Source of the DNA: Promethearchaeota archaeon Loki_b31
GTDB taxonomy: Archaea; Asgardarchaeota; Lokiarchaeia; Sigyniarchaeales; SOKP01
Assembly: GCA_005222975.1 (NCBI GenBank)
Contig: NJBI01000078.1
Span: 1-13,221 of the forward strand
Reading direction: 5' to 3'
Length of the DNA stretch: 13,221 bases
The translations under genes and the position numbers were made by a program. The first letter of the stretch is position 1; every line of letters starts with the position of its first letter. The notes below the pieces were generated by a model, which worked only from the letters and a program-made list of their open reading frames with translations, had not been told where the DNA came from and did not search any database. This document shows, one piece after another, positions 32-13,221 of this stretch.

Positions 32-1135
32 TTAATATTTTGAAGTGGTTTTTGATTTGATTTTATATTTTGGAATCTCTTTTATTTTTCTTAACTCTTT
101 TTCAAAATCTCGCTTTTCTCTAAGAAATCTCTCTTTATCACTTTTTAATTTTTCTCTTTCTCTTCTAATTGCCTGCTTTTCATTCTGCATCATCGATTTT
201 TCTTTTTCCAATTGTTTAGACTCATTTTTTAATTTTTTAAGCTTATTCTCTAAATTACGAATTTTATGTTCTAAAGAATAATAAGTATCTTCTGCTTTAG
301 GAACTTTTCTATCTAATTCCTTTAATCTTGCTTCTTGCCCTTTTTTCTTTCTTTCTAATTCTCTTATATTACGATCTACTTTCTCTTTATACTTGTTCAA
401 TCCTTCTTTTTTTTTTTCAACTTCACGAGATTGAAGATTTAACTCTTTTTTTTTATATCGAACTTTTTCTTTTTCATCTTTTAATTTTCTTTTCTCATCC
501 TCGATTCGATTTTTTTCATCTATTTTTTCTCTTCTCAAACTATTGATTTCTTTGGTTAGATTATCTCTTTCTCTCGTTAAATTCTTAATTTCATTTCTCA
601 AATCCATTAATGCGTTTTCCAACTTTTCATTAGTTCTTTCTAACGCATTTTCTCTCCGTTCCATACCGGGTATTTTAGTTTTAATTTCCTTAATTCTATC
701 TTTTGCTCTTTCTTTTTCTTTTTCTAAATATTTTTTCTCATTCTTTATCTCATCTTTTAATCCATGTAGTTTCTCTTGATATCGTTCTAAGTTAGCATTT
801 TTTTGATCTAATTCCCTTTCTCTTAAAGCTATATTATCTCTACTTTGCTTTATTTCATTTCTCATAGCATCTAATTCATTTTTTAATTTTTCACGTTTAT
901 TTTGTAGGTCTCTCACTTGAAGTTCTTTTTCTTTTCTTTTCTTTTCTAAATCTTCAATATTTTCGTGGTATCCTTCAATTTTTTTAATAACCTGTTCCCA
1001 TTCATTTTTCTCTTTGTTCAATTTAGCTGTTTCTTCCTTAATTTTTTTGAGTAATTTCGCATCTGGAATAACATCTAATTGCTCTTCAGGTGTTTTTTCT
1101 CGAATTTGGTATTTAGGAATGGGTTTATCATTCAT
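32..1135 (-). CDS. Long coiled-coil protein (367 aa), function unknown
   Basis: ATG-started ORF, almost entirely E/K/R/L/N heptad-like helix. Prolines only near the termini and at P156/P279. No Walker A motif or hinge, so not an SMC. Confidence 0.85.
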   Translation of the reverse strand: MNDKPIPKYQIREKTPEEQLDVIPDAKLLKKIKEETAKLNKEKNEWEQVIKKIEGYHENIEDLEKKRKEKELQVRDLQNKREKLKNELDAMRNEIKQSRDNIALRERELDQKNANLERYQEKLHGLKDEIKNEKKYLEKEKERAKDRIKEIKTKIPGMERRENALERTNEKLENALMDLRNEIKNLTRERDNLTKEINSLRREKIDEKNRIEDEKRKLKDEKEKVRYKKKELNLQSREVEKKKEGLNKYKEKVDRNIRELERKKKGQEARLKELDRKVPKAEDTYYSLEHKIRNLENKLKKLKNESKQLEKEKSMMQNEKQAIRREREKLKSDKERFLREKRDFEKELRKIKEIPKYKIKSKTTSKY

Positions 1136-1317: not shown

Positions 1318-1707
1318 ATGGATTTTGAGGAAGATTTTAACGAGGAATTTGACGAGGAATTTGACGAAGACCTAGATGAAGAATTAGATGAGCCTTCTAC
1401 AAAGTCCCCCACGGAAGATTTTACAGTTAAAACTCCAGATCAAAAAATCTCACATGAAGGAAAAAAGATTTCAGTGTATTTTCTATCAACCATAGGACCT
1501 GGTGAGAAAAAACAAAAATTACTGGTCTATACTGGAAATAAAGTAGGAGATATTAAAGAAACTGTAGCAAATTTGTTTGCTTTAGATCCTGCTGACTTTC
1601 ATTTATCTTCGGGGGGAGTCACTATGGATGAAATTTCGATGTTAAGTGATTATAATTTGTCTGATGGAGATGATATATTACTAATTCCAGCTAGCGTTGC
1701 TGGTTGA
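1318..1707 (+). CDS. Ubiquitin-like protein (Ubl-1) with acidic N-terminal tail, C-terminus ...LIPASVAG-stop
   Basis: The last ~82 aa follow the ubiquitin pattern (VGDIKETV~IENVKAKI; FHLSSGGVTMDE~QRLIFAGKQLED; LSDYNL~LSDYNI). ATG at 1318 is preferred over the GTG at 1309 because GGTG (1306-1309) lies 8 nt upstream and the paralogue starts similarly (MDF vs MSF). Confidence 0.85.
   Translation: MDFEEDFNEEFDEEFDEDLDEELDEPSTKSPTEDFTVKTPDQKISHEGKKISVYFLSTIGPGEKKQKLLVYTGNKVGDIKETVANLFALDPADFHLSSGGVTMDEISMLSDYNLSDGDDILLIPASVAG
1324..1392 (+). repeat. In-frame 12-bp tandem repeat (~6 degenerate copies) encoding (F/L)-D/E/N-E-E/D units
   Basis: TTTGAGGAAGAT TTTAACGAGGAA TTTGACGAGGAA TTTGACGAAGAC CTAGATGAAGAA TTAGATGAG. 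Exact core (ACGAGGAATTTG)x2 plus ACGA at 1340-1367. Confidence 0.9.
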
Positions 1708-1759
1708 ATAGATTGGAAAGATATAGACAATTTAATAATATTATTTTCTTTTTTCACTT

Positions 1760-2554
1760 CTATTTTTTTTTTTTTCTTGATGGAATTAGCGCAATTTCGT
1801 TATCATCGTCTATAGCATAATCTTCTATTAGAAGAGTTTCTTTCAATAAAATCCCCCCAGATGATAATAGAAAATCTTCTAGATTATAATCAAATAATAT
1901 TCCAACTTTTTCTTTAATGATACTTACTAATTCAGACGGATCAATAATGAGAATCTTAGTTTTCTCACCTGATTCGACTAATGACCTTACATAAACACGT
2001 ATTTTCTCATCCATCCCAATAGTATGCAATGGTGGGTTGTATATCACCTGTTCCTCAGTTAGGCTCTTGGTTTCTAACATATCTTCAATTAACTGTTTTC
2101 TCTCACTATCATCAAAATACAACATCTCTCTGATAAAAAAGATTTTATCCATTTTTGATAATCCTAAAAGATCAATTTTAGCTATTTGCTCTTTACTAAA
2201 AATAGTAAAAATATAATCATCCATCGATTCTATTTCTTCAAATGATTCTATTGCATTCGCATAATTATCTATTAAAGGCATTGCATCAAAGTAATCCTCG
2301 AGTAGAGCACTAGTTTTTTTCTTAACTGATTTTTGTTTAGGAAAAGGTTTTTTACCTTTCATCTTTACAATATGGGTACTACTAGATTGAACAACGGTGT
2401 ATATCGTGCCTGTGGATAGCACAGCAACACTACCAATTGTTAGAAAGATATATACTGGAACATTTTCTACTTGTAAAAATATAAGAATCAAATAGGTAAA
2501 TACAATCCCTACATAAAGAGTTATGAGACTTAATATTCTATAATTCTTTCTCAT
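1760..2554 (-). CDS. Membrane protein with two N-terminal TM helices and a C-terminal Ubl domain lacking the terminal Gly
   Basis: Two hydrophobic segments (ILSLITLYVGIVFTYLILIFL; VYIFLTIGSVAVLSTGTIYTVV). The last 81 aa align with Ubl-1/Ubl-2 (GEKTK, IKE, FLLSSGG, DY, LIP) and end SRKKKK. ATG at 2554 preferred; the ORF track starts at TTG 2599. Confidence 0.8.
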   Translation of the reverse strand: MRKNYRILSLITLYVGIVFTYLILIFLQVENVPVYIFLTIGSVAVLSTGTIYTVVQSSSTHIVKMKGKKPFPKQKSVKKKTSALLEDYFDAMPLIDNYANAIESFEEIESMDDYIFTIFSKEQIAKIDLLGLSKMDKIFFIREMLYFDDSERKQLIEDMLETKSLTEEQVIYNPPLHTIGMDEKIRVYVRSLVESGEKTKILIIDPSELVSIIKEKVGILFDYNLEDFLLSSGGILLKETLLIEDYAIDDDNEIALIPSRKKKK

Positions 2555-2638
2555 GATTTTTATGATAAATTCTATTCTAATTTCTAATATATAATTCAAA
2601 ATATAAATCCCATTGGAATAAGTTTGAAATTTTGATGC

Positions 2639-3310
2639 TCACCCACCTAAAATTGATGCTCTTATCTTATAGTATTTCTCTGTATTGATTTTAAAAAAAA
2701 CCTTTTTATTTTCTTTTTCGATTGTTATTAAATCCAGATTTTTTAATATTTCAAGATACTTTTTTATAGTATTGTAATTCTTTTTTAATCCAGTTGCGAT
2801 TTCAGTACTCTTTAATGTTTTATTTTCTTTAATCATAAAATCAATTATTTCTTGAACGATATCTCTTTTTAAATAAAAAAATAACATATCATATTCTGGA
2901 TTTGAATCATATTCAAAGATTATTTTTTGATTATCAATTTTTTTTGATCTAGTAAATCTAAATTTTTCTAAACAGGATAAATGCCATAGTGCTTGATTGC
3001 TTCCAATGTTAATGGCTCTCATTATTTCATTAATATTTGATGGATTCTTCTTTATAAAATTATAAATTTCATTTCTTATGGGATGTTCAATAATATTGTT
3101 TTTCATTAATTTTGTTCCAGGAATTAAAATTCTTTTTTTAATTAGATTTTTAATTATAAGTTCAATACTATTTTTATTTAGATAAGGGTTAGATTTTACT
3201 CTATTATTGATAAATACAACAATATCTTCTATTGAAAAGAAAGGTTTCTTTTTTAAATATTCCCTTATTAAATCACAAACAATAGATTGAAGGTTATCCG
3301 GAGAGCTCAT
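2639..3310 (-). CDS. Winged helix-turn-helix transcriptional regulator with tandem ArsR-like wHTH domains
   Basis: RNEIYNFIKKNP..INEIMRAI..G..QALWHLSCLEK and a second HTH, STEIATGLKKNYNTIKKYLEILKNLDLI. This matches the archaeal double-HTH regulator pattern. Confidence 0.8.
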   Translation of the reverse strand: MSSPDNLQSIVCDLIREYLKKKPFFSIEDIVVFINNRVKSNPYLNKNSIELIIKNLIKKRILIPGTKLMKNNIIEHPIRNEIYNFIKKNPSNINEIMRAINIGSNQALWHLSCLEKFRFTRSKKIDNQKIIFEYDSNPEYDMLFFYLKRDIVQEIIDFMIKENKTLKSTEIATGLKKNYNTIKKYLEILKNLDLITIEKENKKVFFKINTEKYYKIRASILGG

Positions 3311-3503
3311 AAGCTAAAATTTTTATTATGTTAAATGGTCTGAATTTATTAATCAAATCTTCTTTCTAAACAGTATTCTCACCAATATATATTAATAAAT
3401 CGTCATTCAATTTATAAATATATGTTCTTAGGCTCTACTTAATATATTATTTCGTTCACTTTTTAAAATTAATAAAACTTCAAAATCATTCCAATGCGTT
3501 TTA

Positions 3504-3530
3504 TAATAAATAGATTTTATCTATTTATTA
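3504..3530. promoter_or_regulatory. Perfect 12-bp inverted repeat (TAATAAATAGAT-ttt-ATCTATTTATTA), candidate operator
   Basis: Lies in the divergent intergenic region between the wHTH gene and the Ubl-2/E1 operon, and overlaps a TATA-like TTTATAA at 3500-3506. The palindrome is observed; the function is inferred. Confidence 0.5.
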
Positions 3531-3575
3531 AATTCTAAAAAAAAATAAATCTAAAAAATAGATAAAGTGATTTGA

Positions 3576-3908
3576 ATGAGTTTTGACAACGATTTTGATG
3601 AGGAATTAGAACCAGTTAAATCTAAAACCCCATCAAGTAAAACACCCTCAACAGGCAGAAAGTTGACTTTATATTTCATGTCAACTATTGGTCCTGGTGA
3701 AAAGAAGGAAAAATTAACTGTGAATGACGGTAATAATGTAAGTGACATTAAACAAACATTAGGAAATTTATATGGACTTGATCCTGAAGAATTTCACCTC
3801 TCATCCGGAGGAGTTACCATGGATGAGGGTAATCAATTAAAAGATTATAATGTTAGTGATGGCGACGACATTCTCTTGATCCCAGCGAGTACTGCTGGAT
3901 ACTTTTAA
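3576..3908 (+). CDS. Ubiquitin-like protein precursor (Ubl-2), C-terminus ...LIPASTAG-YF
   Basis: 58/82 residues identical to the Ubl-1 domain by manual alignment. Immediately upstream of E1-E2-JAMM-RING. Confidence 0.9.
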   Translation: MSFDNDFDEELEPVKSKTPSSKTPSTGRKLTLYFMSTIGPGEKKEKLTVNDGNNVSDIKQTLGNLYGLDPEEFHLSSGGVTMDEGNQLKDYNVSDGDDILLIPASTAGYF

Positions 3909-3934
3909 ATATTTCTTTTCATAAAGTTTAATAT

Positions 3935-3968
3935 AAGGGCATTAAGCCCTTCAATTTTTTTATTTTTT
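3935..3968 (+). terminator. Putative hairpin plus T-tract terminator/attenuator between Ubl-2 and E1
   Basis: AAGGGC-attaa-GCCCTT (3935-3951), followed by CAA and T7-A-T6. The GC stem stands out in AT-rich DNA. Confidence 0.45.
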
Positions 3969-3983
3969 CAATTAATATTAATA

Positions 3984-5216
3984 GTGATAATATTGGATAA
4001 GGAATCAGATTTTTTTGCTAAAGGAATGACAGCGGAAGAGAGAAATTTATATGATCGCCAATTTCGTTTGGAAGGATGGTCTCAGAATTTGGTAAAAGAC
4101 TCAAGAGTGTTAATTGTAGGCATTGGTGGGTTAGGTTGCGAAATTGCTAAAAACCTAGCCATGTTAGGTGTAGGCCATTTAGATCTTGTTGATTTAGACA
4201 TTATTGAGCATTCCAATTTGAATCGCCAAATTCTTTTTGTTGATGCAAAGTTAGGAGAACCAAAAGCTATTGTAGCGGCTAATAAGCTAATCAAGATTAA
4301 CCCTAATATTACTGTAAAAGGGTATCATACATCCTTAGAAAGGCTAGATCCTGCTTTATATCGTGCGGCAGATGTTGTTATTGGGGGTCTTGATTCAATG
4401 AATGCCCGTTTGAACCTAAATGCGCAATGTATACGATTTAGAAAACCACTAGTGGATGGAGGTGTAAATGGTTATCATGGACATATGTATTCAATCTTTC
4501 CGTATCGGAATGCTTGTTACGAATGTAATCCATTACCAGTAGCTGAAAATGATGAAATGGCAGCCTGTACAGTGGTAGGTATCCCCCGAAAACGGATTCA
4601 TTGTGTTTTTAAAGGAGATATGGCCTTTAAAGAAAAGTTTGATAGAGATCCGTACCCAAAAAATATAAAGGATATTGAATTTATCCAAAAAGGTGCAAAT
4701 AAATTAGTGAATAAGCATAATTTCCTACCTGAATATACTTCTGATGATATCGTTAAAATTATTGATCGTCATGATCCTGGGATCATTACAATTAATGCTG
4801 TTATTTCTGCTTTAGAATCACATGAAGTTGTGAAAATCTTGCATTGGAAAAGAGGTCATAAGAGTTTAGGACGACCCATTTCAAGTTATGTTATATTTAA
4901 TGGAATGACAATGAAACTGTATCATATTGAAAAGAAGAGAAATCCGGAATGTTCTCAATGTGGTAAAAACGTAAGGCGTGTTGCTATAAAAATGAAAGCT
5001 CAATCACCCTGTATGAACATAATTAGAACATTGCAAAAAAATGGATTTGAATTGGAACCTGAATTTGAACCAGTTGTTACCTTACAGGATTTCAATGACA
5101 TCATGGTTTTAGATTTAGAGCAAAATGTAATCGAAAATGGATTAAGAAACTACGAATTTCTGACCGTTGTGGGGTTAAAGGGTGGAGAAATTTATGTTAC
5201 TTTAAAATTAAAATAA
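3984..5216 (+). CDS. E1 ubiquitin-like activating enzyme (ThiF/MoeB adenylation domain, catalytic-Cys region, probable C-terminal ubiquitin-fold domain)
   Basis: LYDRQ, GIGGLG, DLDIIEHSNLNRQ, GLDS..AR, two CxxC pairs (CYEC, CSQC). CTVVGIPRKRIHC resembles the UBA3 catalytic motif CTIASMPRLPEHC. Start is uncertain (GTG 3984, TTG 3993 or ATG 4026). Confidence 0.92.
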   Translation: MIILDKESDFFAKGMTAEERNLYDRQFRLEGWSQNLVKDSRVLIVGIGGLGCEIAKNLAMLGVGHLDLVDLDIIEHSNLNRQILFVDAKLGEPKAIVAANKLIKINPNITVKGYHTSLERLDPALYRAADVVIGGLDSMNARLNLNAQCIRFRKPLVDGGVNGYHGHMYSIFPYRNACYECNPLPVAENDEMAACTVVGIPRKRIHCVFKGDMAFKEKFDRDPYPKNIKDIEFIQKGANKLVNKHNFLPEYTSDDIVKIIDRHDPGIITINAVISALESHEVVKILHWKRGHKSLGRPISSYVIFNGMTMKLYHIEKKRNPECSQCGKNVRRVAIKMKAQSPCMNIIRTLQKNGFELEPEFEPVVTLQDFNDIMVLDLEQNVIENGLRNYEFLTVVGLKGGEIYVTLKLK

Positions 5217-5293
5217 AAATTAAATCAAAAATGATTTTTGAGAAAAATCTATTAAAAAAAAAAGTATAAAAGAAAATAAAAAGGGTTGAGAAA

Positions 5294-5821
5294 ATGAGTA
5301 TAAGAACCAGTCGTGTTTCCCGAGATTTTGCGGGATTAAAAAAATTGCTTAAAGAAGGTACTATTATCCAATTAAAACCATTTAATCCGAAAAAAAAGAG
5401 TATTGATCATTTAGCAATCACAATTAAAGGTCCTAAAGGTACAGTTTATGCAGGGGGATTGTTTAAGTTGGAAATGAGATTCCCGGCTCAGTATCCTAAG
5501 CGACCTCCTTTCGTAAGATTGCATACTCCAATTTGGCATCCAAATTTTTGGCCAAAACCAAGTGAATACAAAGGACAGAGAAATATTTGTTTAGCTTTAG
5601 TAGATCCTTCTTTAACGGGTAAAAAAGGGGGATGGAGTCCTTCAAAAACAGCAGTTACTGTTGTTCAAGCAATAATTGCAATGTTAAACACCCGTGGTAA
5701 ATATGTTAATCCCACTGATGTTTTTAATAAGAAAGCTGCAATAGAAATGATGAAAGATCAGAAATTTTTTGAGAAAAAGGTCAAAAATTTAGTAAAGAAA
5801 TACGCAAAAGATAAATGGTGA
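5294..5821 (+). CDS. E2 ubiquitin-conjugating (UBC-fold) enzyme
   Basis: GP.GT.Y.GG.F.L...FP..YP..PP.V....IWHPN, catalytic ICL (C99), WSP. Confidence 0.95.
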   Translation: MSIRTSRVSRDFAGLKKLLKEGTIIQLKPFNPKKKSIDHLAITIKGPKGTVYAGGLFKLEMRFPAQYPKRPPFVRLHTPIWHPNFWPKPSEYKGQRNICLALVDPSLTGKKGGWSPSKTAVTVVQAIIAMLNTRGKYVNPTDVFNKKAAIEMMKDQKFFEKKVKNLVKKYAKDKW

Positions 5822-5828
5822 ATTTATA

Positions 5829-6620
5829 ATGAATATTGATGATAATGCACTCAGAGAGGCAATAAAACAGAAAATTAAGGAAAAAATTAAAAAGGAATTA
5901 CTTGAAGAAGTATATACCGAATTACAACTAGAAGAATTGCAGGAAGAATTAACCACTGAACTTATTAAAGCAAGGCCTTTAGAACATTCAAAAGAAATTA
6001 AAGCCAAACTTGAGCCAATTCCTATGGAACCAATAAAAACTATAGCTAAAAATGATAAAGTTGAAGTATCTTTGACTATAAAATCTATCCTTAAGATCGC
6101 TAGCCATTCATTAAAATATGCACATTCTAAAATGCGAAGAGAGAATTGGGTTGAAGTAATAGGGTTGCTTGCAGGAAAATACGATAATAGAAAAGGAATT
6201 CTTCATGTTGAAGATGCGTATCCGATGGGGCATGGTACAGCAGTATATGCTGAAATTAAAGATTATAAAAATTATGTTAGAGCCTACAAAGAGATTAAAA
6301 AAGATAATCTGGTTATTTGTGGATGGTATCATTCTCATCCTTCTTATGGATGTTTTATGTCTCGAGAAGACTTAGGAACTCAAGCAAGATATCAAAAATT
6401 ATGGGATAAAGCTATTGCGCTTGTTATTGATCCATATCAGATTAACGGGAAATCTTTAGGTTTTGAAATTTATCGTGCTAATTTTAAAACAAAAAAATGG
6501 TTTTCAATTCCATTTGATATTAAGGGGTATTTAGATGTAAGAATGTTACCAGAAATTTTAGAATTTATGAATCCTATTATTGAAGGAAAACCAGTTTATT
6601 TAGAATATGATGAAGAATAA
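5829..6620 (+). CDS. JAMM/MPN+ metalloprotease (Rpn11/CSN5-like) with N-terminal coiled-coil extension
   Basis: EVIGLLAG and GWYHSHPSYGCFMSREDLGTQ give the full E...HxH-x7-S-x2-D motif; also ALVIDP. GGTG lies 8 nt upstream. Confidence 0.93.
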   Translation: MNIDDNALREAIKQKIKEKIKKELLEEVYTELQLEELQEELTTELIKARPLEHSKEIKAKLEPIPMEPIKTIAKNDKVEVSLTIKSILKIASHSLKYAHSKMRRENWVEVIGLLAGKYDNRKGILHVEDAYPMGHGTAVYAEIKDYKNYVRAYKEIKKDNLVICGWYHSHPSYGCFMSREDLGTQARYQKLWDKAIALVIDPYQINGKSLGFEIYRANFKTKKWFSIPFDIKGYLDVRMLPEILEFMNPIIEGKPVYLEYDEE

Positions 6621-6649
6621 TGAATAGTTTTTAAGGTGAAAATTAAACT

Positions 6650-7765
6650 ATGGTAAAAAAAAAAGTGTTAAGGATAATAGCTATTATTTTTCCAATAATT
6701 GGCTTAATTCATGGTTTAATCTCATATTCTTCAACTATTTTTTTTACATGGTTATTAATCGGATTATGGATAATATTTACAATGAAGATTTTTGAAAATA
6801 TCAAGCGCCACCGTGAGTTTAATTCACCACACAATACTGCATTTTTTGTGATTCTCCCATTATTTATCGGGATTTTTTACTCCATATGGGGTTCTTTTAC
6901 TGGTCTATTGGGAGAGAGTCTTATCGGTGGCGTATATTTTAGTCTTTGGAGTCTAATTTTTGCTTTTCCATTTATAATGTATGGTTTATATTCTTTATAT
7001 CGTTGTTTTAAGAAATATAATGTAATCTATTTTGGAAAAAAATCAGTAAAAGCAAGAATGTTGGGATATATTCTATCATTCTCAGTTCTTATTCTTATTA
7101 TTGCCTATTGGATAACTTTTTATAATTTTACTCTATTAGACTTAAATCTCCTATTACTTTTCATAGCTATAGTTTTAATATTAATTGTTTTTGGATTTAC
7201 TAGTACTGGTTCATCAATACCAACATTAACTCGGGATTACATTGCTGAACGTACTAGAAGGATCAATAATTTGACCACACCTTCAACCCAGAGACAAAGA
7301 GTACACACAACACGTACAACTAATACATCTCCATCAACTAGAACAACTACACGTACAACAAGATCTAGAACCCAATCGTCAAGAACAACTCCTACATCAC
7401 ATAGACAAACGGCAAGGACTAGAACAACAAATACTACACGTACTACTCGTGTTAAACCAACTTCAAAAGTTCGTGATCTAAATAAATATAAACCAAGAGC
7501 ATCATATCTTACAGTAGATGATTTTAAATGTATCTTTTGTTTTAATTTACCAAAACTTCCTGGAGACAGAGGTAGAGGAATAGTTGTATGTCCAAATTGC
7601 AGATATCCCGCACATGCTGATGAATTTAAAGATTGGATGCGAACTTCAAACCTCTGCTCACGTTGTAGTGCTGTTATACCATCAGGCTTTAGGCGTAATC
7701 CTAGAATTGTATCTGTAAAAAATTATTTAATTATCTATAGACATTTTTTGAAGAAGAAAAGATAG
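6650..7765 (+). CDS. Multi-pass membrane protein (~6 TM) with Thr/Arg-rich linker and C-terminal RING-like zinc finger; putative E3 ligase
   Basis: Six hydrophobic segments in aa ~6-184. C294xxC297...C314xxC317-x4-H322-x2-E325-x3-W329...C336xxC339. Last gene of the Ubl-E1-E2-JAMM run, with GGTGA upstream. Confidence 0.75.
   Translation: MVKKKVLRIIAIIFPIIGLIHGLISYSSTIFFTWLLIGLWIIFTMKIFENIKRHREFNSPHNTAFFVILPLFIGIFYSIWGSFTGLLGESLIGGVYFSLWSLIFAFPFIMYGLYSLYRCFKKYNVIYFGKKSVKARMLGYILSFSVLILIIAYWITFYNFTLLDLNLLLLFIAIVLILIVFGFTSTGSSIPTLTRDYIAERTRRINNLTTPSTQRQRVHTTRTTNTSPSTRTTTRTTRSRTQSSRTTPTSHRQTARTRTTNTTRTTRVKPTSKVRDLNKYKPRASYLTVDDFKCIFCFNLPKLPGDRGRGIVVCPNCRYPAHADEFKDWMRTSNLCSRCSAVIPSGFRRNPRIVSVKNYLIIYRHFLKKKR
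7274..7465 (+). repeat. Low-complexity Thr/Arg/Ser coding tract with degenerate repeats
   Basis: ACACGTAC at 7310, 7349 and 7436; ACTAGAACAAC at 7337 and 7418. Encodes repeated TRTT. Confidence 0.7.
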
Positions 7766-7779
7766 ACAAATAAAAATTA

Positions 7780-8736
7780 TTACGACATTCTTATAATTTT
7801 TCTCAACTCACCCACACTAGTTTTTAACTCAGAAAAAACGTTATGTGGATGAATAGATTCAAAGCTTTCAATTTTAAAAGTAATTTTGAAATCATTTTCT
7901 AAATTGGGAAAATCTCTTAAAATAAAGTTTTTTGCCATTTCTCTTACTACATCTTCAGAAAACAGCGGTTTTAAATGAGCAATTCTGACAAGTTTGGCTT
8001 CTTCAGGTCTTTTCAGAACAGACTGTATTTTTCCACTCATCGATTCTTCAATAATATCAATGATATCTAACACATCTATCCTATTGTTATTTAAATCTTT
8101 TATTTGAACTATTATAGTCCCAATTGAACGTTGATTATGAGAGCTAAAAGGTAGGATATTAAGAAGAGTTTTAACCACATCATCAGAAAGGTTAAGATCT
8201 TGCCTATTTTTAATAATTTCCTCAGCATATTCTTGGCTCATTTCCTTAGCACAGGGACAAACCGTCATACCAACAGCACTGGCTCCAATGTAATAACTAA
8301 AATCGACTTTTTCTTGTTCTTTCTTCTTTGCCTTTACAAATGAGCTAATTTCATATGCTTTCTGGATGGTTCTCTGTTGTTCGTCTTTACCTTGTACAAT
8401 TATTTTTCCTTCTAATTTTACATGAATCTTTTCGGTATACGGGTGCCGTTCTAACAATTTTCTAGCAATCCTATCTCCAACTAATTCAACCGATGGAGTG
8501 GGTTTAAAAATTACTTCATTTATTATTTCTTCAATAGTTTCTGAGGTTCGCGACATATGTATGCCACGCTGTTGTGCTGGCAAAGAGATTAAGGCAGATA
8601 TTTTTGGGTAAAAAGAAAACCGTTTATTCTCATGAATAATCTCAACTTTCTTTTCTACTCCCACGATCCCAACTTTATCGATTGGAATATCAACTATCGA
8701 ACCAGAGCCTTGTAAATCTTTCTTAAACTGATGAAT
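7780..8736 (-). CDS. mptA: GTP cyclohydrolase MptA (archaeal member of the FolE2/GCYH-IB family)
   Basis: RGIHMSR, GMTVCPCA, HNQRS, LKRPEE, P.F.EDVVR, ESIHPHN. The conserved N-terminal DLQ...IPIDKVGI lies in frame upstream of the tracked GTG at 8664, so the start was extended provisionally to ATT at 8736. Confidence 0.85.
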   Translation of the reverse strand: MHQFKKDLQGSGSIVDIPIDKVGIVGVEKKVEIIHENKRFSFYPKISALISLPAQQRGIHMSRTSETIEEIINEVIFKPTPSVELVGDRIARKLLERHPYTEKIHVKLEGKIIVQGKDEQQRTIQKAYEISSFVKAKKKEQEKVDFSYYIGASAVGMTVCPCAKEMSQEYAEEIIKNRQDLNLSDDVVKTLLNILPFSSHNQRSIGTIIVQIKDLNNNRIDVLDIIDIIEESMSGKIQSVLKRPEEAKLVRIAHLKPLFSEDVVREMAKNFILRDFPNLENDFKITFKIESFESIHPHNVFSELKTSVGELRKIIRMS

Positions 8737-8855
8737 AAATCAACACCAATTTTTTTGCTCGTTATTTATATGATGTACCAATTTTTATAATTTTTATAAT
8801 ATATTTTCTATTATATTATTTCTTGAAATAGGAATAAATAAAAATTGAATTTAAT

Positions 8856-10028
8856 ATGCCTAAAACTGCGATATATAGTAAATATGGGCTAATTGGAGAC
8901 GATTTAGAGCTAAAAAAAAATATTTCAATAGAAGTAGATAAAGACGGAAAGATTATTACAATTTCTTGCGAAAATATTACGAATAATATTGATATCTCGA
9001 GGAAAGGACGAAGTACTTTATTAGTTCCAGGACTAATTAATTCCCATATTCATATTGGCGATAGTTTTGCGAAAGAGGAAGGGTTTAATAAAGATTTAAT
9101 CGATGTTGTCGCCCCTCCAAATGGATTAAAGCATAAATTGTTAAGAACAATCTCAAACGAAATAAAAATTGAAGGGATAAAAAAAGCAGTTTTAGAAATG
9201 CTAGCAAATGGTATAACATTCTTTGTGGACTTCCGAGAAAACGGGTTAAAAGGTGTAGATCTTTTAAAAGAAACTTTAAAAAATTCTCCTATTAATAAAC
9301 TCATTTTAGGAAGGGATAATAATTTAGTTGATGTGGAAACTGTATTTAAAAATGCTGATGGCTTAGGATTTGCTAGTTATAAGCATCTTTCTCCTAAAAA
9401 CAAAGAAAAATTAAGTAGTTTAAAAAAAGAATATTTAAAAAAAATTATAGCGTGCCACGATGCTGAACTCTCGAGAGACGAGCCACTTTTTAACGAAATA
9501 ATAAACGATGATTTAATCGATGTAATTATACATGGTACTCATTATACAAGAGAAGATTTAGAGAGAATAAAGGGTAGAAATATTTCTATAGTTTTATGTC
9601 CTCGATGTAACGGTTATTTTGGAGTTGGATTTCCACCAATAAACGAAATTAATAGTTTAAAAATTCCTATAAGTTTAGGGACTGATAATGTAATGGTAAA
9701 TACGATTGATTTGTTCGAAGAAATGCGTTACCTATATAGAATTTCTCGTGTTTTATCACCTGATAAAAGTAATAATAATCTTTCTTCAAAAGATTTGTTG
9801 AAAATGGTAAGCATTAATGCTGCTAAAAATTTTGGGTTAGAAAAAGAATTTGGGTCAATTTCAGAGGGAAAATTTGCTGATTTTTTTTTGCTAAATTTAT
9901 CTGACCCGAACTATTATTCATATAAGATTGATCACAAAAGTATTTATCCTATTATTGTCCAAAGATCAAAATCTGAAAATATCAGAAAAACATATATTAA
10001 AGGCGAGGTAGTATTTGAAAGGAAATAA
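8856..10028 (+). CDS. Metal-dependent amidohydrolase (SsnA/cytosine-deaminase-like TIM barrel)
   Basis: PGLINSHIHIGD (HxH), HDAE, IIHGT, CPRCN, LGTDN, GSISEGKFAD. Confidence 0.9.
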   Translation: MPKTAIYSKYGLIGDDLELKKNISIEVDKDGKIITISCENITNNIDISRKGRSTLLVPGLINSHIHIGDSFAKEEGFNKDLIDVVAPPNGLKHKLLRTISNEIKIEGIKKAVLEMLANGITFFVDFRENGLKGVDLLKETLKNSPINKLILGRDNNLVDVETVFKNADGLGFASYKHLSPKNKEKLSSLKKEYLKKIIACHDAELSRDEPLFNEIINDDLIDVIIHGTHYTREDLERIKGRNISIVLCPRCNGYFGVGFPPINEINSLKIPISLGTDNVMVNTIDLFEEMRYLYRISRVLSPDKSNNNLSSKDLLKMVSINAAKNFGLEKEFGSISEGKFADFFLLNLSDPNYYSYKIDHKSIYPIIVQRSKSENIRKTYIKGEVVFERK

Positions 10029-10683
10029 GCATCCTTACGTAATTTTGAGCGCGGCTATGACAATTGACGGTAAAATCGCTTCTAAGATAGGAGACCCAGA
10101 CATTTCTGACGAAGAAGATTGGAAAGCCGTACATAAACTAAGAACAGAGGTAGATGCAATTATGGTTGGTAAAGGGACGATTTTAAAAGATAATCCAAAG
10201 CTTCATATTAAATATTACGATCATAACGGATATTTTCGAATTGTGTTAGATAGTACTCTTTCAATACCAATTGATTCAAATGTGATAAAATATAAACCAG
10301 AAGTTTACCCCACGATCATATGTATAACTGAAAATGTTCCTTTGGAGAAAATAAAAGATTTCGAATTAAAAAACATTAAGATTATAAAATCAGGTAAAGG
10401 GAGCAGAGTTGATGTGGTTAAACTAATGCCAATTTTATATCAAAATGGTATAAAAAAGATTCTACTAGAGGGAGGTGGCAATTTGAATTGGAGTTTTATT
10501 AAAGATAATTTAGTAGACGAAATAAGGTTAACAATTGCCCCTTGGATCGTTGGCGGTAAAGATGCTATAACCCTAGTAGAGGGAGCGGGTTTCTCAAAAA
10601 TGCTTGAAAGCCCTAAATTTATCTTATCTGATGTGGATCATAGAAATAATTACGTAATTCTAAAATATAAAAAAGGAAAATGA
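10015..10683 (+). CDS. arfC: 2,5-diamino-6-(ribosylamino)-4(3H)-pyrimidinone 5'-phosphate reductase (stand-alone RibD_C)
   Basis: AAMTIDGKIA, VHKLR...DAIMVG.GT...DNP.L, LLEGGGNLNWS, VDEI..TIAP.IVGG. No deaminase domain. TTG start with GAGGT upstream; overlaps the preceding gene. Confidence 0.88.
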   Translation: MKGNKHPYVILSAAMTIDGKIASKIGDPDISDEEDWKAVHKLRTEVDAIMVGKGTILKDNPKLHIKYYDHNGYFRIVLDSTLSIPIDSNVIKYKPEVYPTIICITENVPLEKIKDFELKNIKIIKSGKGSRVDVVKLMPILYQNGIKKILLEGGGNLNWSFIKDNLVDEIRLTIAPWIVGGKDAITLVEGAGFSKMLESPKFILSDVDHRNNYVILKYKKGK

Positions 10684-11792
10684 CGGAAGATATAAAAAAA
10701 GTCAAAGAATTAAAATCTTTATCAATCAGAAAGTTAAAAGAAAAAGTTAATGAAATAAAAAATGAGTTAGATAAAGAAGAGCAAAAAATTATAACATATT
10801 CTAAGAATTTCACCCTTTCCCTTTCTAATTATTGTCAAAATCAATGCGGATATTGTTTTTATAATCATAGGATCGCTAAAGAAACAGGGGAAAAAAATGT
10901 TGTGTTAATTGAAGATGAAAAAATCGATTTGATAACTCAAAATGCGGCGCAATATGGATGCAAGGAAGCTTTATTAATGTCAGGTGAATTTCCAGATAGT
11001 TTTCAAATAGTTCAGAAAGAGTTAGAAAAAAGGAATTTTGGCGATTTCTTACAATTTGTTAAGAATTTAAGCAAAAATCTATTAAACATGAATTTTCTAC
11101 CTCATACCAACATTGGCTTGCTTACATTTGAGCAATTAAAAAGTTTAAAGGATTATAACGCTAGTATGGGTTTAATGTTAGAGAGTACTTGCAAAAGTCT
11201 TTTTAAAAGCGGTGGAGTTCATGTAAACTCGCCTGGTAAAATTCCCGAAAACCGAATCGAACACATTGAAAATGCGGGAAAGTTAAAAATTCCCTTCACT
11301 ACTGGTTTATTATTAGGAATTGGAGAGAGTTTTGAAGATAGGATAAAAGATCTGTTTTTAATTAAGGAAATCAATCTTCAATATGGTCATATACAAGAGG
11401 TTATCATACAAAACTTTATAGAGAAAAAGGGTATACGATATAATCCAAGAACCCCCATAACTATTGAAGAAACCCTCAAAACTGCTGGAATCGCAAAATT
11501 AATATTTGAAAATGAGATTGCTATTCAAGTACCTCCCAATTTAATTCAAAATTACGAGACAGAAGCCATAGAGATGGGTATTGATGATTTTGGAGGAATT
11601 TCCCCTTTTACCTTGGATTATATCAACCCGGAGCATACTTGGCCTAAAATAGATTATTTAAAAAAGATTTGTGGAAAAAAAGGGTATAAACTGGAAATGA
11701 GATTACCAATTTATAATAAATTTATCAATAAAAAGGGATTCTGCCCCAAAAATATTAAAAAAACGATAGATAATATTAATCAAAATGTCTGA
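10680..11792 (+). CDS. cofG: FO synthase subunit 1 (7,8-didemethyl-8-hydroxy-5-deazariboflavin synthase), radical SAM
   Basis: ITYSKN, CQNQCGYC, LPHTN.G, NASMGLMLE, SPGK.P..R, IPFTTGLL.GIGE, GHIQEVIIQNF, QVPPNL, D.GGISP.T.D.INPE..WP. ATGA overlap with arfC. Confidence 0.95.
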   Translation: MTEDIKKVKELKSLSIRKLKEKVNEIKNELDKEEQKIITYSKNFTLSLSNYCQNQCGYCFYNHRIAKETGEKNVVLIEDEKIDLITQNAAQYGCKEALLMSGEFPDSFQIVQKELEKRNFGDFLQFVKNLSKNLLNMNFLPHTNIGLLTFEQLKSLKDYNASMGLMLESTCKSLFKSGGVHVNSPGKIPENRIEHIENAGKLKIPFTTGLLLGIGESFEDRIKDLFLIKEINLQYGHIQEVIIQNFIEKKGIRYNPRTPITIEETLKTAGIAKLIFENEIAIQVPPNLIQNYETEAIEMGIDDFGGISPFTLDYINPEHTWPKIDYLKKICGKKGYKLEMRLPIYNKFINKKGFCPKNIKKTIDNINQNV

Positions 11793-12909
11793 AATATATA
11801 ATTACATCAAACCAGATATTAAAAAAATTCTCAAAAAAGCGGAAGAATCGGAAGAAATCAGTCGAGAAGAAGCTCTTAAACTACTAAAAGTTACAGGGAA
11901 AGAATTTTTTGCTTTACAACAAATAGCTGATCAGATTTGTTTTGAGAAGAAAAATAATCTTGTAACATTTATTATAAATCGAAATATAAATTTTACAAAT
12001 ATTTGCTATCAGAATTGTAAATTTTGCTCTTTTAGTGTTTCAAATAAGAATAAAGAAAGTTTTTTACAAACTCATGAAGAAATTAGAAAAAAAGTTTTGG
12101 ACGCTAAAACTGCTGGTTGTACAGAGGTTTGCATCCAGGGTGGAATAAATCCCGAACTAGATTTTGACTATTACCTAAATATTTTGAAGAATGTAAAAGA
12201 TGTCGATGCTAACATGCATACGCACGCTTTTTCACCTCAAGAAGTATTTTATATGTCAAAATTATATGGAAATTCTATTGAAAATACATTAAAAGAATTA
12301 AAGAAAGCGGGATTAGATTCAATGCCCGGCACTGCCGCTGAAATTTTAGTTGATGATGTTAGGAAAATCATATGCCCCAATAAATTATCAACATCTCAAT
12401 GGATTAATGTGATAAGTACAGCTCATAAATTAAGTATCCCTACTACGTCAACTATGATGTACGGACATATCGAAGATTTACGAGACAGAATCAAACACCT
12501 TGAGGTGTTAAGGGAGATTCAAAAAGAGAACTCAGGTTTTACTGAATTTGTCGCTTTACCCTTTGTTAAGGAAAAACCAATGCTATCGACCCTAACAGAT
12601 TTCCCTTTAAAACCAAGTTTTGGAATGGCAGATTTGAAACTCTTCTGCGTAGCAAGAATATTTTTTAACAATTACATTGATAATATTCAATGTTCATGGG
12701 TTAAATTGGGTCCAAAATTTGCTCAAGTATCTCTTAATTATGGAGTAAACGATTTTTCTGGGACACTAATGGAAGAAAATATTTCAAAAAGTGCAGGTGC
12801 GGAATTTGGAGAGTACTTATCTCCAGAGGAAATAATTGAAATTATTAAAGCTGCAGGAAAACGCCCAGCACAGAGAGATACAATATATAAAATCTTAAAA
12901 TATTACTAA
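11785..12909 (+). CDS. cofH: FO synthase subunit 2 (5-amino-6-(D-ribitylamino)uracil-L-tyrosine 4-hydroxyphenyl transferase), radical SAM
   Basis: NRNINFTNIC...C.FC, TEVCIQGG, HAFSP.E, SMPGTAAEIL.D.VR, STMMYGH, GFTEFV.LPF, NIQ.SWVKLG, GTLMEENISKSAGA. Adjacent to cofG. Confidence 0.95.
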   Translation: MSEIYNYIKPDIKKILKKAEESEEISREEALKLLKVTGKEFFALQQIADQICFEKKNNLVTFIINRNINFTNICYQNCKFCSFSVSNKNKESFLQTHEEIRKKVLDAKTAGCTEVCIQGGINPELDFDYYLNILKNVKDVDANMHTHAFSPQEVFYMSKLYGNSIENTLKELKKAGLDSMPGTAAEILVDDVRKIICPNKLSTSQWINVISTAHKLSIPTTSTMMYGHIEDLRDRIKHLEVLREIQKENSGFTEFVALPFVKEKPMLSTLTDFPLKPSFGMADLKLFCVARIFFNNYIDNIQCSWVKLGPKFAQVSLNYGVNDFSGTLMEENISKSAGAEFGEYLSPEEIIEIIKAAGKRPAQRDTIYKILKYY

Positions 12910-13220: not shown

Positions 13221-13221
13221 T

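What the first reader, a model, noticed from the sequence alone, without database searches (positions are those of the whole stretch)
1318..7765. Complete, membrane-linked archaeal Ubl conjugation system built on a non-diGly modifier family
Seen: Ubl-2, E1, E2, JAMM and a TM-RING gene run co-directionally with short spacers, and two more paralogues of the same Ubl family plus a regulator lie just upstream. Known: Ub-E1-E2-RING-JAMM clusters occur in Caldiarchaeum and Asgard archaea, so a cluster alone is not new. The unusual part is the combination of AG-ending modifiers with acidic tails, a multi-pass membrane E3 candidate and a membrane-tethered Gly-less Ubl. Inference: a dedicated Ubl pathway, parallel to standard diGly ubiquitin, that acts at the membrane (quality control, trafficking or antiviral defence). 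I cannot confirm novelty without searches.
Basis: partly seen in the sequence, partly recalled or inferred. Interest (0 to 1): 0.92.

Follow-up and report, generated by a model that had tools for sequence, protein, structure and literature searches.

The report
Second Asgard ubiquitin-like system, membrane RING
This Loki-type Asgard archaeon carries a real, widely conserved ubiquitin-like tagging operon whose tags end in Ala-Gly and whose probable ligase is a six-helix membrane protein; it runs alongside the better-known Gly-Gly ubiquitin of these archaea and has hardly been described.

Summary
The window (a whole contig of a Lokiarchaeia/Promethearchaeia MAG) encodes Ubl2, E1, E2, an Rpn11-type JAMM and a TM-RING protein co-directionally, with gaps of 75, 77, 7 and 29 nt. 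Upstream lie Ubl1, a two-helix membrane-anchored Gly-less Ubl and an ArsR-type regulator.

The core operon recurs in four families of the order and in at least four families outside the class. Every conjugatable Ubl examined ends ..LLIP-x-S-x-AG plus 0-12 variable residues.

The C-terminal zinc domain folds as a RING/U-box. It is predicted to dock on the canonical E2 surface (ipSAE 0.66, best control 0.12).

Most relatives also carry a distinct Gly-Gly ubiquitin (Lokiarch_37670 type) with its own E1 and E2, so "parallel pathway" holds for the lineage. That second system was not found in this assembly.

New here: an invariant double x-K-T-P motif in the Ubl N-terminal tail recurs at both ends of the conserved neighbouring coiled-coil protein.

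Defence or quality-control roles remain unsupported. The E1 and E2 of this operon already appear in published Asgard trees, and this scan has reported the operon on other DNA. I rate it a new variant of a known kind.

The parts
32..1135 (-). Lys/Glu-rich coiled-coil protein (367 aa), divergently transcribed. It is the conserved neighbour of the Ubl gene across several Asgard families. Orthologues carry K[TS]P motifs at both termini. In this genome the N-terminus reads ..REKTPEE and the C-terminus is degenerate (..KSKTTSKY). Candidate substrate or adaptor.
   Evidence: ORF. Only sub-threshold coiled-coil Pfam matches. Adjacent to the operon in order-level and other-class loci. Motif statistics (56/62 N-terminal, 57/62 C-terminal, 0 in 17,723 middle residues).
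1318..1707 (+). Ubl1: conjugatable paralogue (129 aa from ATG 1318). It has a long acidic N-terminal extension, TKSP and VKTP motifs and a beta-grasp domain. It ends ..LLIPASVAG directly at the stop, with no propeptide.
   Evidence: PF00240, 0.0083; 64% identical to Ubl2; orthologues end AS[TIV]AG plus 0-6 residues.
1760..2599 (-). Membrane-anchored Ubl (279 aa; likely start at the Met of MRKNYR, near 2554). It has two N-terminal TM helices, a basic juxtamembrane stretch, a helical middle region and a C-terminal Ubl domain ending ..IPSRKKKK. There is no terminal Gly, so it is not conjugatable.
   Evidence: PF00240, 3.1e-4, residues 205-271; hydropathy; 57 distinct orthologues, none ending in AG. 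Present in most of the 80 best loci.
2639..3310 (-). Tandem winged-helix (ArsR/SdpR-like) transcription regulator, 223 aa. It belongs to the family-level insertion between the coiled-coil gene and the operon.
   Evidence: searches (HrcA_DNA-bdg 1.8e-7, HTH_5 3.5e-6; SdpR family 3.8e-10), synteny.
3576..3908 (+). Ubl2: the operon's modifier (110 aa). It has an acidic N-terminal tail, two invariant x-K-T-P motifs (K17-T-P19 and K22-T-P24) and a ubiquitin-family beta-grasp domain. Its tail ..LLIPASTAG is followed by a two-residue propeptide, YF.
   Evidence: PF00240, 28.9 bits; 818 homologues; 120/120 end in AG with 0-4 extra residues; invariant columns; profile matches ubiquitin; the tail aligns to Ub residues 71-76.
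3984..5216 (+). E1 (410 aa). It has a ThiF adenylation domain with a GxGxxG motif at residue 46, Zn CxxC pairs at 178/181 and 323/326, a catalytic-Cys insertion (C195) and a C-terminal extension in the position of a ubiquitin-fold domain.
   Evidence: ThiF 7.8e-57; best solved relatives are SAE2/UBA2, the NEDD8 E1 UBA3 (one stretch, residues 35-331) and UBA1, all ahead of MoeB. for residue positions.
5294..5821 (+). E2 (175 aa). It has a UBC fold, HPN at 82-84, its only Cys at C99, a 6-7 residue insertion between HPN and the Cys, and an SPS loop at 115-117. Mean column identity across the 81 sequences compared is 92%.
   Evidence: UQ_con 6e-26; best hits are eukaryotic E2s. An identical sequence is in a published alignment.
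5829..6620 (+). Rpn11-type JAMM metalloprotease (263 aa) with an about 80-residue charged N-terminal extension. It is the likely propeptide-processing and deconjugating enzyme.
   Evidence: JAB 3.3e-15; the best solved relative is the Caldiarchaeum Rpn11-like protein (1.1e-16), then Rpn11 and CSN5. Motif.
6650..7765 (+). TM-RING protein (371 aa). It has six predicted TM helices (about residues 2-183), a roughly 80-residue Thr/Arg/Ser-rich disordered basic linker (206-285) and a C-terminal RING-like domain. The RING motif is C294-x2-C297-x16-C314-x2-C317-x4-H322-x2-E325-F-x2-W329-x6-C336-x2-C339. Candidate membrane E3.
   Evidence: invariant ligands; AF2: six helices, disordered linker; RING/U-box fold matches; E2 docking; hydropathy, linker composition; narrow family with fixed architecture.

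Best explanation
This is a self-contained, eukaryote-like ubiquitin-like conjugation cascade. It is vertically inherited in Lokiarchaeia and some other Asgard classes. It is distinct from the Gly-Gly ubiquitin system that most of these organisms also carry.

Proposed mechanism (inferred unless marked):
1. The Ubl is made with 0-12 residues beyond ..STAG. Where a propeptide exists (YF here), the Rpn11-type JAMM removes it and also reverses conjugation.
2. The E1 adenylates the terminal Gly and forms a thioester on C195.
3. The Ubl passes to E2 C99.
4. The RING domain sits on the cytoplasmic side, tethered to a six-helix membrane domain by a long basic linker. It binds the E2~Ubl through the canonical helix-1 / loop-4 / loop-7 surface and stimulates discharge onto lysines of proteins at or near the membrane.

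Shown here: gene content, catalytic motifs, conservation, RING fold and predicted E2 docking.

Further inference: the invariant x-K-T-P pairs in the Ubl's flexible N-terminal tail, and the same motif at both ends of the conserved neighbouring coiled-coil protein, mark either preferred acceptor lysines or a shared docking motif. Acceptor lysines would give chain growth on the tail, as with the SUMO-2/3 N-terminal consensus site, and would make the coiled-coil protein a dedicated substrate.

The Gly-less membrane-anchored Ubl probably acts as a fixed membrane landing pad for Ubl-binding factors. This would resemble eukaryotic HERP and TMUB proteins (from my own knowledge of those proteins).
For: - Domains and catalytic residues are complete.
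- The operon Ubl-E1-E2-JAMM-TMRING is conserved in four families of the order. It is also in families f5 and f7 of the class, and in f13, f17, f28 and f29 outside it.
- Full-length TM-RING is found in 196 of 400 phylum genomes sampled.
- The AG terminus is invariant while the residues after it vary, as expected for a cleaved propeptide.
- The tail is the same length as ubiquitin's LRLRGG.
- RING motif: seven of eight ligand positions are invariant Cys/His. It also carries the RING-H2/RING-CH signature H-x2-(ligand)-[F]-x2-W.
- The AF2 model of the domain has pLDDT 76.6. Foldseek and VIA matches are essentially all RING or U-box E3 domains (Z 4.5-5.8 over 59-77 residues; RNF4 rmsd 2.8).
- Complex prediction of E2 plus the RING domain: score 0.66, best of 3 controls 0.12. 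That mark was reached by 58 of 80 solved complexes and 2 of 110 mismatched pairs. The runs agree in 100% of contacts and partner pLDDT is at least 88. The contacts fall on E2 residues 3-10, 68-69 and 108-117, and on RING residues I295, F296, E325, W329, S333, L335 and R338. E2-RING complexes are solved, so this pass may partly reflect likeness to them.
- The TM domain occurs only in this architecture: 74 cluster representatives among 1.84 billion proteins. Of the 53 that are 330 aa or longer, 51 carry the RING motif.
- A parallel GG system with paralogous enzymes exists in relatives. Identities to this operon's proteins are 37% (E2), 46% (E1 adenylation domain) and 17% (Ub).
Against: - There is no biochemical or expression evidence of any kind.
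- The RING-like domain scores below every Pfam RING cut-off.
- It has Glu, not Cys or His, at the sixth ligand position. Two-zinc cross-brace coordination is therefore unproven.
- Fold-match Z-scores of 5-6 lie in the range the tool itself calls 'middling'.
- Many Ubl2 orthologues (48 of about 69) end exactly at AG, so JAMM processing is not always needed.
- Closed genomes G032 and G038 of the same order lack the operon, so it is dispensable.
- The substrate and the biological role are unknown.
- The KTP hypothesis rests on motif co-occurrence alone.
Confidence: 0.65

Rival explanations
1. There is nothing separate here. This is simply the known Asgard/Lokiarchaeal ubiquitin system. The AG tail and the membrane anchor are minor lineage quirks of the same pathway that serves ESCRT sorting.
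For: A sequence identical to the window's E2, and the Lokiarchaeum GC14_75 orthologue, were treated as 'Asgard E2L' in a published alignment. The Lokiarchaeum E1-like protein is listed among the archaeal clusters classified as I, II or III. In this assembly the operon is the only ubiquitin-family, UQ_con-type system found.
Against: Most relatives hold a second, very different ubiquitin (..ATQAGG, 17% identical) with its own E2 and E1. That GG protein, not the AG Ubl, was the 'Ub' used with the UEV/ESCRT-I proteins. The AG operon reaches Asgard classes where the GG type was not found.
Confidence: 0.15
2. The TM protein is not an E3. Its zinc domain would be a treble-clef or zinc-ribbon module that anchors, or is modified by, an E3-independent E1-E2 cascade.
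For: No Pfam RING model passes its cut-off; the best matches are zinc-ribbon and RING-like models at E 0.03-0.8. The sixth ligand is Glu. Fold Z-scores are modest.
Against: The motif order, spacing and H-x2-X-F-x2-W helix fit RING-H2/RING-CH. The structural neighbours are essentially all RING or U-box E3 domains. Docking uses exactly the canonical E2 and RING surfaces and beats the controls by 0.54. The gene is fixed as the last gene of the operon across classes.
Confidence: 0.12
3. It is an antiviral defence module, analogous to bacterial Bil or to CBASS Cap2/Cap3 ubiquitin-like systems.
For: The E1 and JAMM give domain-level matches to PADLOC E1-E2 and JAB models, and to the NCBIfam 6A-MBL cap2_3 model. 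Some genomes of the order lack the operon.
Against: The matches cover only the generic adenylation or JAB core. There is no fused E1-E2, no effector and no defence neighbours. The whole 13-kb neighbourhood (MptA, amidohydrolase, ribD, cofG, cofH) is syntenic in most of the 80 best loci, and the proteins diverge with the host lineage.
Confidence: 0.04
4. It is a sulfur-carrier or cofactor-biosynthesis system (ThiS/MoaD/SAMP-like), suggested by the adjacent pterin, riboflavin and F420 genes.
For: The E1 belongs to the ThiF/MoeB superfamily. MptA, ribD, cofG and cofH lie immediately downstream.
Against: The E1 carries the catalytic-Cys insertion and resembles UBA3, UBA2 and UBA1 more than MoeB. 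An E2, a RING and an Rpn11-type JAMM are present. The cofactor genes are neighbours only in this family and not in other families that keep the operon. Two simpler MoeB-sized ThiF proteins (252 and 277 aa frames) and two further ThiF-domain hits lie elsewhere in the genome.
Confidence: 0.03

Closest known systems
Caldiarchaeum subterraneum ubiquitin operon (Ub, E1-like, E2-like, small RING finger protein, Rpn11), reconstituted in vitro (PMC5654768, PMC6043591)
   Same: The parts list and operon logic are the same. There is a pro-modifier with a short C-terminal propeptide, an E1 with a catalytic-Cys insertion, a UBC-fold E2 with HPN and Cys, a RING-type E3 and an Rpn11-type JAMM. The JAMM's best solved relative is the Caldiarchaeum enzyme.
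   Different: The modifier ends Ala-Gly, not Gly-Gly. It also carries a conserved acidic and double-KTP N-terminal tail. The E3 is fused to a six-helix membrane domain through a long disordered linker and has Glu at the sixth zinc-ligand position. That paper states that only small soluble RING proteins were then known in archaea. Extra Ubl paralogues, a membrane-anchored Ubl and a conserved coiled-coil neighbour are present.
ESCRT-linked Gly-Gly ubiquitin of Asgard archaea (Lokiarch_37670 type; Helarchaeial Ub-E1-E2-RING acting on UEV-Vps23; PMC9192718 and bioRxiv 10.1101/2023.07.25.550441)
   Same: It occurs in the same organisms. The E1 and E2 are paralogous (46% and 37% identity), and both E2s share the insertion between HPN and the catalytic Cys. 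The tails are related (ATQAG-G versus ASTAG).
   Different: It is a different modifier family (17% identity, 84-88 aa, no N-terminal tail). Its genes are dispersed rather than in an operon. It was found only within the class, whereas the AG operon reaches other classes. It is linked by experiment to UEV/ESCRT-I binding; nothing is known for the AG system.
Eukaryotic membrane RING E3s (RING-CH MARCH/Doa10, RING-H2 Hrd1/gp78) and membrane UBL proteins (HERP, TMUB1/2); comparison from my own knowledge
   Same: It works alike in outline: a cytoplasmic RING tethered to a polytopic membrane domain, and a non-conjugatable UBL domain held at the membrane. The motif C-x2-C...C-x2-C-x4-H-x2-X-F-x2-W...C-x2-C resembles RING-CH.
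   Different: No sequence or fold relationship of the TM domain to any of these was found. The RING is C-terminal. Nothing links the system to ERAD or endocytic sorting.
SUMO pathway consensus-site modification (psi-K-x-E, SUMO-2/3 chains through the N-terminal tail); from my own knowledge
   Same: A flexible N-terminal tail of the modifier carries an invariant Lys-containing short motif that also occurs in a dedicated partner protein.
   Different: The motif is x-K-T-P, not psi-K-x-E. Whether its Lys is an acceptor at all is untested.

Membership tests
Eukaryote-like archaeal ubiquitin operon (Caldiarchaeum/Asgard type) | Ubiquitin-family beta-grasp modifier | tested here: met
   PF00240 scores 28.9 bits for Ubl2. 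The family profile matches ubiquitin best in the PDB, with the tail aligned to Ub residues 71-76.
Eukaryote-like archaeal ubiquitin operon (Caldiarchaeum/Asgard type) | C-terminal di-glycine exposed by processing | tested here: not met
   The terminus is Ala-Gly in all conjugatable members examined. The propeptide logic is kept.
Eukaryote-like archaeal ubiquitin operon (Caldiarchaeum/Asgard type) | E1 with a catalytic cysteine domain, rather than plain MoeB/ThiF | tested here: met
   The C195 insertion is present. The best solved relatives are UBA2, UBA3 and UBA1, and the UBA3 match spans residues 35-331.
Eukaryote-like archaeal ubiquitin operon (Caldiarchaeum/Asgard type) | UBC-fold E2 with HPN and an active-site Cys | tested here: met
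   UQ_con 6e-26. H82, P83, N84 and C99 are invariant in 81 sequences.
Eukaryote-like archaeal ubiquitin operon (Caldiarchaeum/Asgard type) | Rpn11-type JAMM protease in or beside the operon | tested here: met
   JAB 3.3e-15. The best solved relative is Caldiarchaeum Rpn11-like at 1.1e-16. The H-x-H...S..D motif is present.
Eukaryote-like archaeal ubiquitin operon (Caldiarchaeum/Asgard type) | ATP-dependent thioester cascade and isopeptide conjugation | not testable with these tools
   This needs in vitro reconstitution.
RING finger E3 domain | Eight Cys/His zinc ligands in cross-brace spacing | tested here: inconclusive
   Seven positions are invariant Cys/His with RING-compatible spacing. The sixth is Glu in 47 of 51 representatives. 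Metal binding was not measured.
RING finger E3 domain | Match to a curated RING profile | tested here: not met
   zf-RING_16 and Prok-RING_1 reach only 10-12 bits, far below their cut-offs.
RING finger E3 domain | RING/U-box fold | tested here: met
   The domain model has pLDDT 76.6. Foldseek and VIA neighbours are essentially all RING or U-box E3 domains, at Z up to 5.8 over 65-72 residues. The scores are modest.
RING finger E3 domain | Binds the E2 through zinc loop 1, the central helix and zinc loop 2 | tested here: met
   Prediction only. Score 0.66, best of 3 controls 0.12; the mark was reached by 58 of 80 solved complexes and 2 of 110 mismatched pairs. The runs agree in 100% of contacts, partner pLDDT is at least 88, and the canonical surfaces are used. 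The result may partly reflect likeness to solved E2-RING complexes.
UFM1 system (single-Gly modifier, UBA5, UFC1) | UFM1-family modifier with UBA5-type E1 and HPN-less UFC1-type E2 | tested here: not met
   There is no Ufm1 Pfam hit at E up to 1. The modifier matches ubiquitin. The E1 matches UBA5 far more weakly than UBA2 or UBA3. The E2 has HPN.
SAMP/ThiS/MoaD sulfur-carrier type systems | E1-only chemistry with no E2 or E3 and a MoeB-like E1 | tested here: not met
   An E2, a RING and a catalytic-Cys E1 are present.
Bacterial ubiquitin-like defence systems (Bil, CBASS Cap2/Cap3, 6A-MBL) | System-specific proteins or fused E1-E2, in a defence-island context | tested here: not met
   Only generic E1-core and JAB matches were found. 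There is no hit for the E2, the Ubl or the TM-RING. The core-genome synteny is conserved.

The most novel reading that the evidence does not exclude
Asgard archaea run two orthogonal ubiquitin-type cascades.

- The Gly-Gly system feeds ESCRT.
- The older and more widespread Ala-Gly system is a membrane-based, consensus-directed modification pathway.

In the Ala-Gly system the E2 and membrane RING would attach the Ubl to the lysine of x-K-T-P motifs. Chains would build on the Ubl's own N-terminal tail, and the ends of a dedicated coiled-coil protein would be tagged. A fixed, non-conjugatable Ubl would mark the membrane site.

This would be a prokaryotic forerunner both of membrane RING ligases (MARCH, Hrd1 and Doa10 style) and of SUMO-like consensus-site modification.
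Probability: 0.2. Interest if true: 0.85.

Novelty: new variant of a known kind. Interest (0 to 1): 0.6.

Why it matters
Ubiquitin signalling is a hallmark that eukaryotes inherited from their archaeal ancestor. The archaeal systems characterised so far use Gly-Gly ubiquitin and small soluble RING proteins.

If this operon works as proposed, it would show three things:
- Asgard archaea already had duplicated, specialised Ubl cascades.
- One cascade was physically wired to the membrane through a polytopic RING ligase and a membrane-anchored UBL protein.
- Short-motif-directed modification may predate eukaryotes.

All the parts are small, and at least two closed genomes in the order carry the operon. 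The hypothesis is therefore directly testable in vitro, and perhaps in cultured Lokiarchaeia.

Tried and rejected
- **UFM1 idea.** The ..IP-x-x-x-AG plus two-residue propeptide recalls UFM1's ..IPRDRVG-SC, and a 2026 paper reports Ufm1 homologues in Asgard. I rejected it. The profile matches ubiquitin, not UFM1, and the enzymes are not of the UBA5/UFC1 type.
- **Whole-protein fold search of TM-RING.** It gave no match at E <= 0.001, and the TM part had only chance-level transporter hits. The TM domain therefore has no identified known fold.
- **GG ubiquitin in this genome.** The Lokiarch_37670 fragment found nothing, and PF00240 and UQ_con find only the window's genes. I do not read this as a proven loss. 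The assembly is 3.5 Mb, against 4.9-5.0 Mb for close relatives that score 100% complete.
- **UEV and ESCRT.** The Pfam UEV model found nothing in the genome. ESCRT-II (EAP30) and Vps28-like genes are present elsewhere. I could make no link between them and this operon.
- **Genome-wide KTP search.** Paired KTP motifs turned up no further candidate substrates. Only the two Ubls and two likely chance hits appeared, against about 1.7 expected from shuffles.
- **Literature.** Searches for a transmembrane RING or an Ala-Gly modifier in Asgard found no description. The library lacks most subscription papers, for example the supplements of the 2015 and 2017 Nature papers, so prior mention cannot be excluded.
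- **Not attempted.** I built no E1 or E2 trees against eukaryotic families, because no eukaryotic sequences were on hand by reference.

Full report
**What is in the window**

The 13,221-base window is a complete contig (C60) of a 3.5-Mb assembly with 99 contigs, about 30% G+C, 92% estimated completeness and 6% contamination.

- a coiled-coil protein (32-1135, minus strand);
- Ubl1 (1318-1707);
- a membrane-anchored Ubl (1760-2599, minus strand);
- a tandem winged-helix regulator (2639-3310, minus strand);
- then, co-directionally, Ubl2 (3576-3908), E1 (3984-5216), E2 (5294-5821), JAMM (5829-6620) and the TM-RING protein (6650-7765).

The spacers within the operon are 75, 77, 7 and 29 nt. Downstream lie MptA-type GTP cyclohydrolase, an amidohydrolase, archaeal RibD, and CofG and CofH.

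- E1 has C195, flanked by CxxC zinc pairs at 178/181 and 323/326.
- E2 has HPN at 82-84 and a single Cys at 99.
- JAMM has H168-x-H170...S178..D181.

**Whose genome it is**

A scan of species-representative genomes with the TM-RING alignment returned 147 related loci. The best 80 are almost all titled Promethearchaeota or Promethearchaeia (Lokiarchaeia) MAGs. The best is isolate ABR02, at 94% identity.

A sequence identical to the window's E2 appears in the source alignment of Hatano et al. 2022, labelled Loki_GCA_005222975. The Lokiarchaeum GC14_75 orthologue is there too. The Lokiarchaeum E1-like protein KKK43157.1 is listed among the archaeal clusters classified by Hennell James et al. 2017. 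I did not check that it is the orthologue of this operon's E1.

So at least the E2 of this operon is already in the literature as 'Asgard E2-like'.

**Conservation**

- Order level: the order coiled-coil | Ubl-E1-E2-JAMM-TMRING is kept in all four families of the order that were sampled.
- Best 80 loci: the whole 13-kb arrangement, including Ubl1, the anchored Ubl, the regulator and the downstream cofactor genes, is kept in most of them.
- Phylum level: a sample of 400 genomes gave full-length TM-RING matches in 196.
- Other classes: fetching loci from other families showed the same five-gene operon in f5 and f7 (same class) and in f17, f28 and f29 (other classes). A rearranged version is in f13.
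- Dispensability: two closed genomes of the order (G032, G038) lack the operon. A closed 6.0-Mb genome (G171) has it.

**The modifier**

Ubl2 passes the Pfam ubiquitin cut-off. A profile of 23 diverse family members matches ubiquitin best among solved structures. In that alignment ..LLIPASTAG lies on ubiquitin's ..LHLVLRLRGG, so Ala-Gly sits exactly where Gly-Gly does.

Every conjugatable member examined ends [AVST]-S-[TIVR]-A-G followed by 0-12 unconserved residues:
- 120 of 120 top database homologues;
- all order-level and other-class loci;
- all distinct Ubl1 and Ubl2 sequences of the 80 loci.

An invariant terminus followed by variable extra residues is the signature of a processed pro-modifier, as shown experimentally for Caldiarchaeum (PMC5654768). 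Many copies need no processing at all, however.

I considered UFM1 because of its ..VG-SC end and rejected it.

The 'acidic tail' is N-terminal. It is more than acidic: two x-K-T-P motifs (K17, P19, K22 and P24 in Ubl2) are invariant across classes.

**The enzymes**

- E1: its best solved relatives are the catalytic subunits of the SUMO, NEDD8 and ubiquitin E1s, ahead of MoeB and ThiF.
- E2: it matches eukaryotic E2s and is extremely conserved, at 92% mean column identity over 81 sequences.
- JAMM: its best solved relative is the Caldiarchaeum Rpn11-like enzyme, then Rpn11 and CSN5.

**The candidate E3**

AlphaFold2 on an 11-sequence alignment predicts three parts:
- six long helices (about residues 2-183);
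- a disordered stretch at 210-275, which is 27 Thr and 15 Arg in 80 residues;
- a folded C-terminal domain.

With a positive N-terminus and a basic linker, the RING should face the cytoplasm. This is an inference from the positive-inside rule.

The C-terminal domain has invariant C294, C297, C314, C317, H322, E325, F326, W329, C336 and C339. The motif is C-x2-C-x16-C-x2-C-x4-H-x2-E-F-x2-W-x6-C-x2-C. That is the RING-H2/RING-CH layout with Glu at ligand 6.

- No Pfam RING model passes its cut-off.
- Folded alone with 85 sequences, the domain gives pLDDT 76.6.
- Its Foldseek and VIA neighbours are essentially all RING or U-box E3 domains, with Z up to 5.8. The scores are modest but the list is uniform.

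A complex prediction of E2 with this domain and two zinc ions gave these results:
- The score was 0.66, against 0.12 for the best of three controls.
- That mark was reached by 58 of 80 solved complexes and 2 of 110 mismatched pairs.
- The runs agreed in 100% of contacts, and partner pLDDT was at least 88.
- The interface is the textbook one. On the E2 it uses helix 1, residues 68-69 and the 108-117 loop with S115-P116-S117. On the RING it uses I295 and F296 (zinc loop 1), E325 and W329 (helix), and S333, L335 and R338 (zinc loop 2).

E2-RING complexes are solved, so this shows likeness to them, not binding.

The TM domain is a narrow family. A profile search of 1.84 billion representatives found 74 proteins. 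Of the 53 that are at least 330 aa long, 51 carry the RING motif, 47 of them with Glu at ligand 6. No other architecture and no known fold were found for the TM domain.

**Is it parallel to a Gly-Gly ubiquitin?**

In this assembly, PF00240 and UQ_con find only the window's genes.

The 'Ub' used by Hatano et al. for Lokiarchaeum (Lokiarch_37670) is a different protein ending ..VMATQAGG plus five residues. Pfam recognises it well.

- Its orthologues, 84-98 aa and over 90% identical to one another, are present in close relatives and in the closed genomes.
- They occur in 34 of 41 genus genomes and 112 of 134 family genomes.
- They were found only within the class.
- Those genomes also hold a second E2 (169 aa, 37% identical) and, 1.7 kb away in G008, a second and larger E1 (526 aa).

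None of the three GG-system genes was found in this window's genome. The assembly is 3.5 Mb against 4.9-5.0 Mb for near relatives, so I leave loss versus incompleteness open.

**A new observation: the KTP motif**

The coiled-coil protein next to the Ubl gene is conserved across classes. Among 62 distinct orthologues:
- 56 have K[TS]P within the first 40 residues;
- 57 have it within the last 40 residues, often as 2-4 repeats such as IKTKTPS;
- none has it in 17,723 middle residues.

The same motif is the invariant pair in the Ubl tail. It also precedes the Ubl domain in 579-607 aa VWA-Ubl fusion proteins of other families.

In this genome, paired motifs occur only in the two Ubls plus two probable chance hits.

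I propose that the motif marks either acceptor lysines or a docking site shared by the modifier and its dedicated partner. This is untested.

**Function**

I found nothing that indicates defence or cofactor chemistry. Membrane-proximal conjugation follows from the anatomy. Quality control or trafficking is speculation.

ESCRT-II and Vps28-like genes exist elsewhere in the genome, with no link to this locus.

**Comparison with what is known, and novelty**

The cascade is a known kind: the Caldiarchaeum and Asgard ubiquitin operons.

The following were not found described in the searchable literature:
- the Ala-Gly terminus;
- the polytopic membrane RING with Glu at ligand 6;
- the membrane-anchored non-conjugatable Ubl;
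- the double-KTP tail with its coiled-coil partner;
- the coexistence with a separate Gly-Gly system.

Earlier reports of this same scan, on other genomes, already noted the membrane RING, the AG ends and the anchored Ubl. My tests agree with them. I add the second GG system with its enzymes, the spread to other classes, the E2 docking test and the KTP motif.

Verdict: real, conserved, and a new variant of a known kind.

Noticed in passing
L033:9694-11448 (-), L032:2225-3961 (+); also L137:14075-15829 (-) and L138:396-2216 (+): In other families of the phylum, a 579-607 aa protein sits next to the coiled-coil gene. In the two copies scanned against Pfam (L032, L033) it has a VWA domain. In all four it has a C-terminal Ubl ending ..IP[AS]S[TR]AG, with 0-14 further residues depending on the copy. 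A large protein with a conjugatable Ubl at its C-terminus could itself be ligated to targets.
   Followed up: partly
G000 contig C12: 5459-5758 (-), 6907-7263 (-), 8395-8757 (+) (outside the window; loci L129, L130, L132): Three JAB/MPN-domain proteins (463, 486 and 317 aa frames) are clustered within 3.5 kb elsewhere in the same genome. A fifth JAB protein lies on C74.
   Followed up: no
L168:8407-8916 (+) and L168:10625-12205 (-) (G008 contig C34): The second E2 (169 aa) and a 526-aa E1 with a very large insertion in the ThiF domain lie 1.7 kb apart in a same-genus genome. A ferredoxin-like gene and a HAD hydrolase gene lie between them. This is probably the machinery for the ..ATQAGG ubiquitin.
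   Followed up: partly
window 7265-7504 (TM-RING residues 206-285): The linker is an extreme Thr/Arg/Ser low-complexity stretch (27 Thr and 15 Arg in 80 residues). It gives a spurious Pfam match to pneumovirus glycoprotein G. In other families the linker is Arg/Glu/Lys-rich instead, so charge and length are kept rather than sequence.
   Followed up: partly
window 7780-12909: MptA-type GTP cyclohydrolase, a PRK07213-like amidohydrolase, archaeal RibD reductase, and CofG and CofH (F0 synthase) form a cofactor gene block. It is syntenic with the Ubl operon throughout this family but not in other families.
   Followed up: partly
window 5294-5821 (E2 residues 84-99): The operon's E2 and its GG-system paralogue share a 4-7 residue insertion between the HPN motif and the catalytic Cys, compared with canonical eukaryotic E2s (the longer one in the operon's E2).
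   Followed up: no
window 12906-13221 (-): An ORF of about 102 aa that looks like a CBS-domain protein by eye runs to within a few bases of the contig end. It is unrelated to the finding and was not scanned against any library.
   Followed up: no
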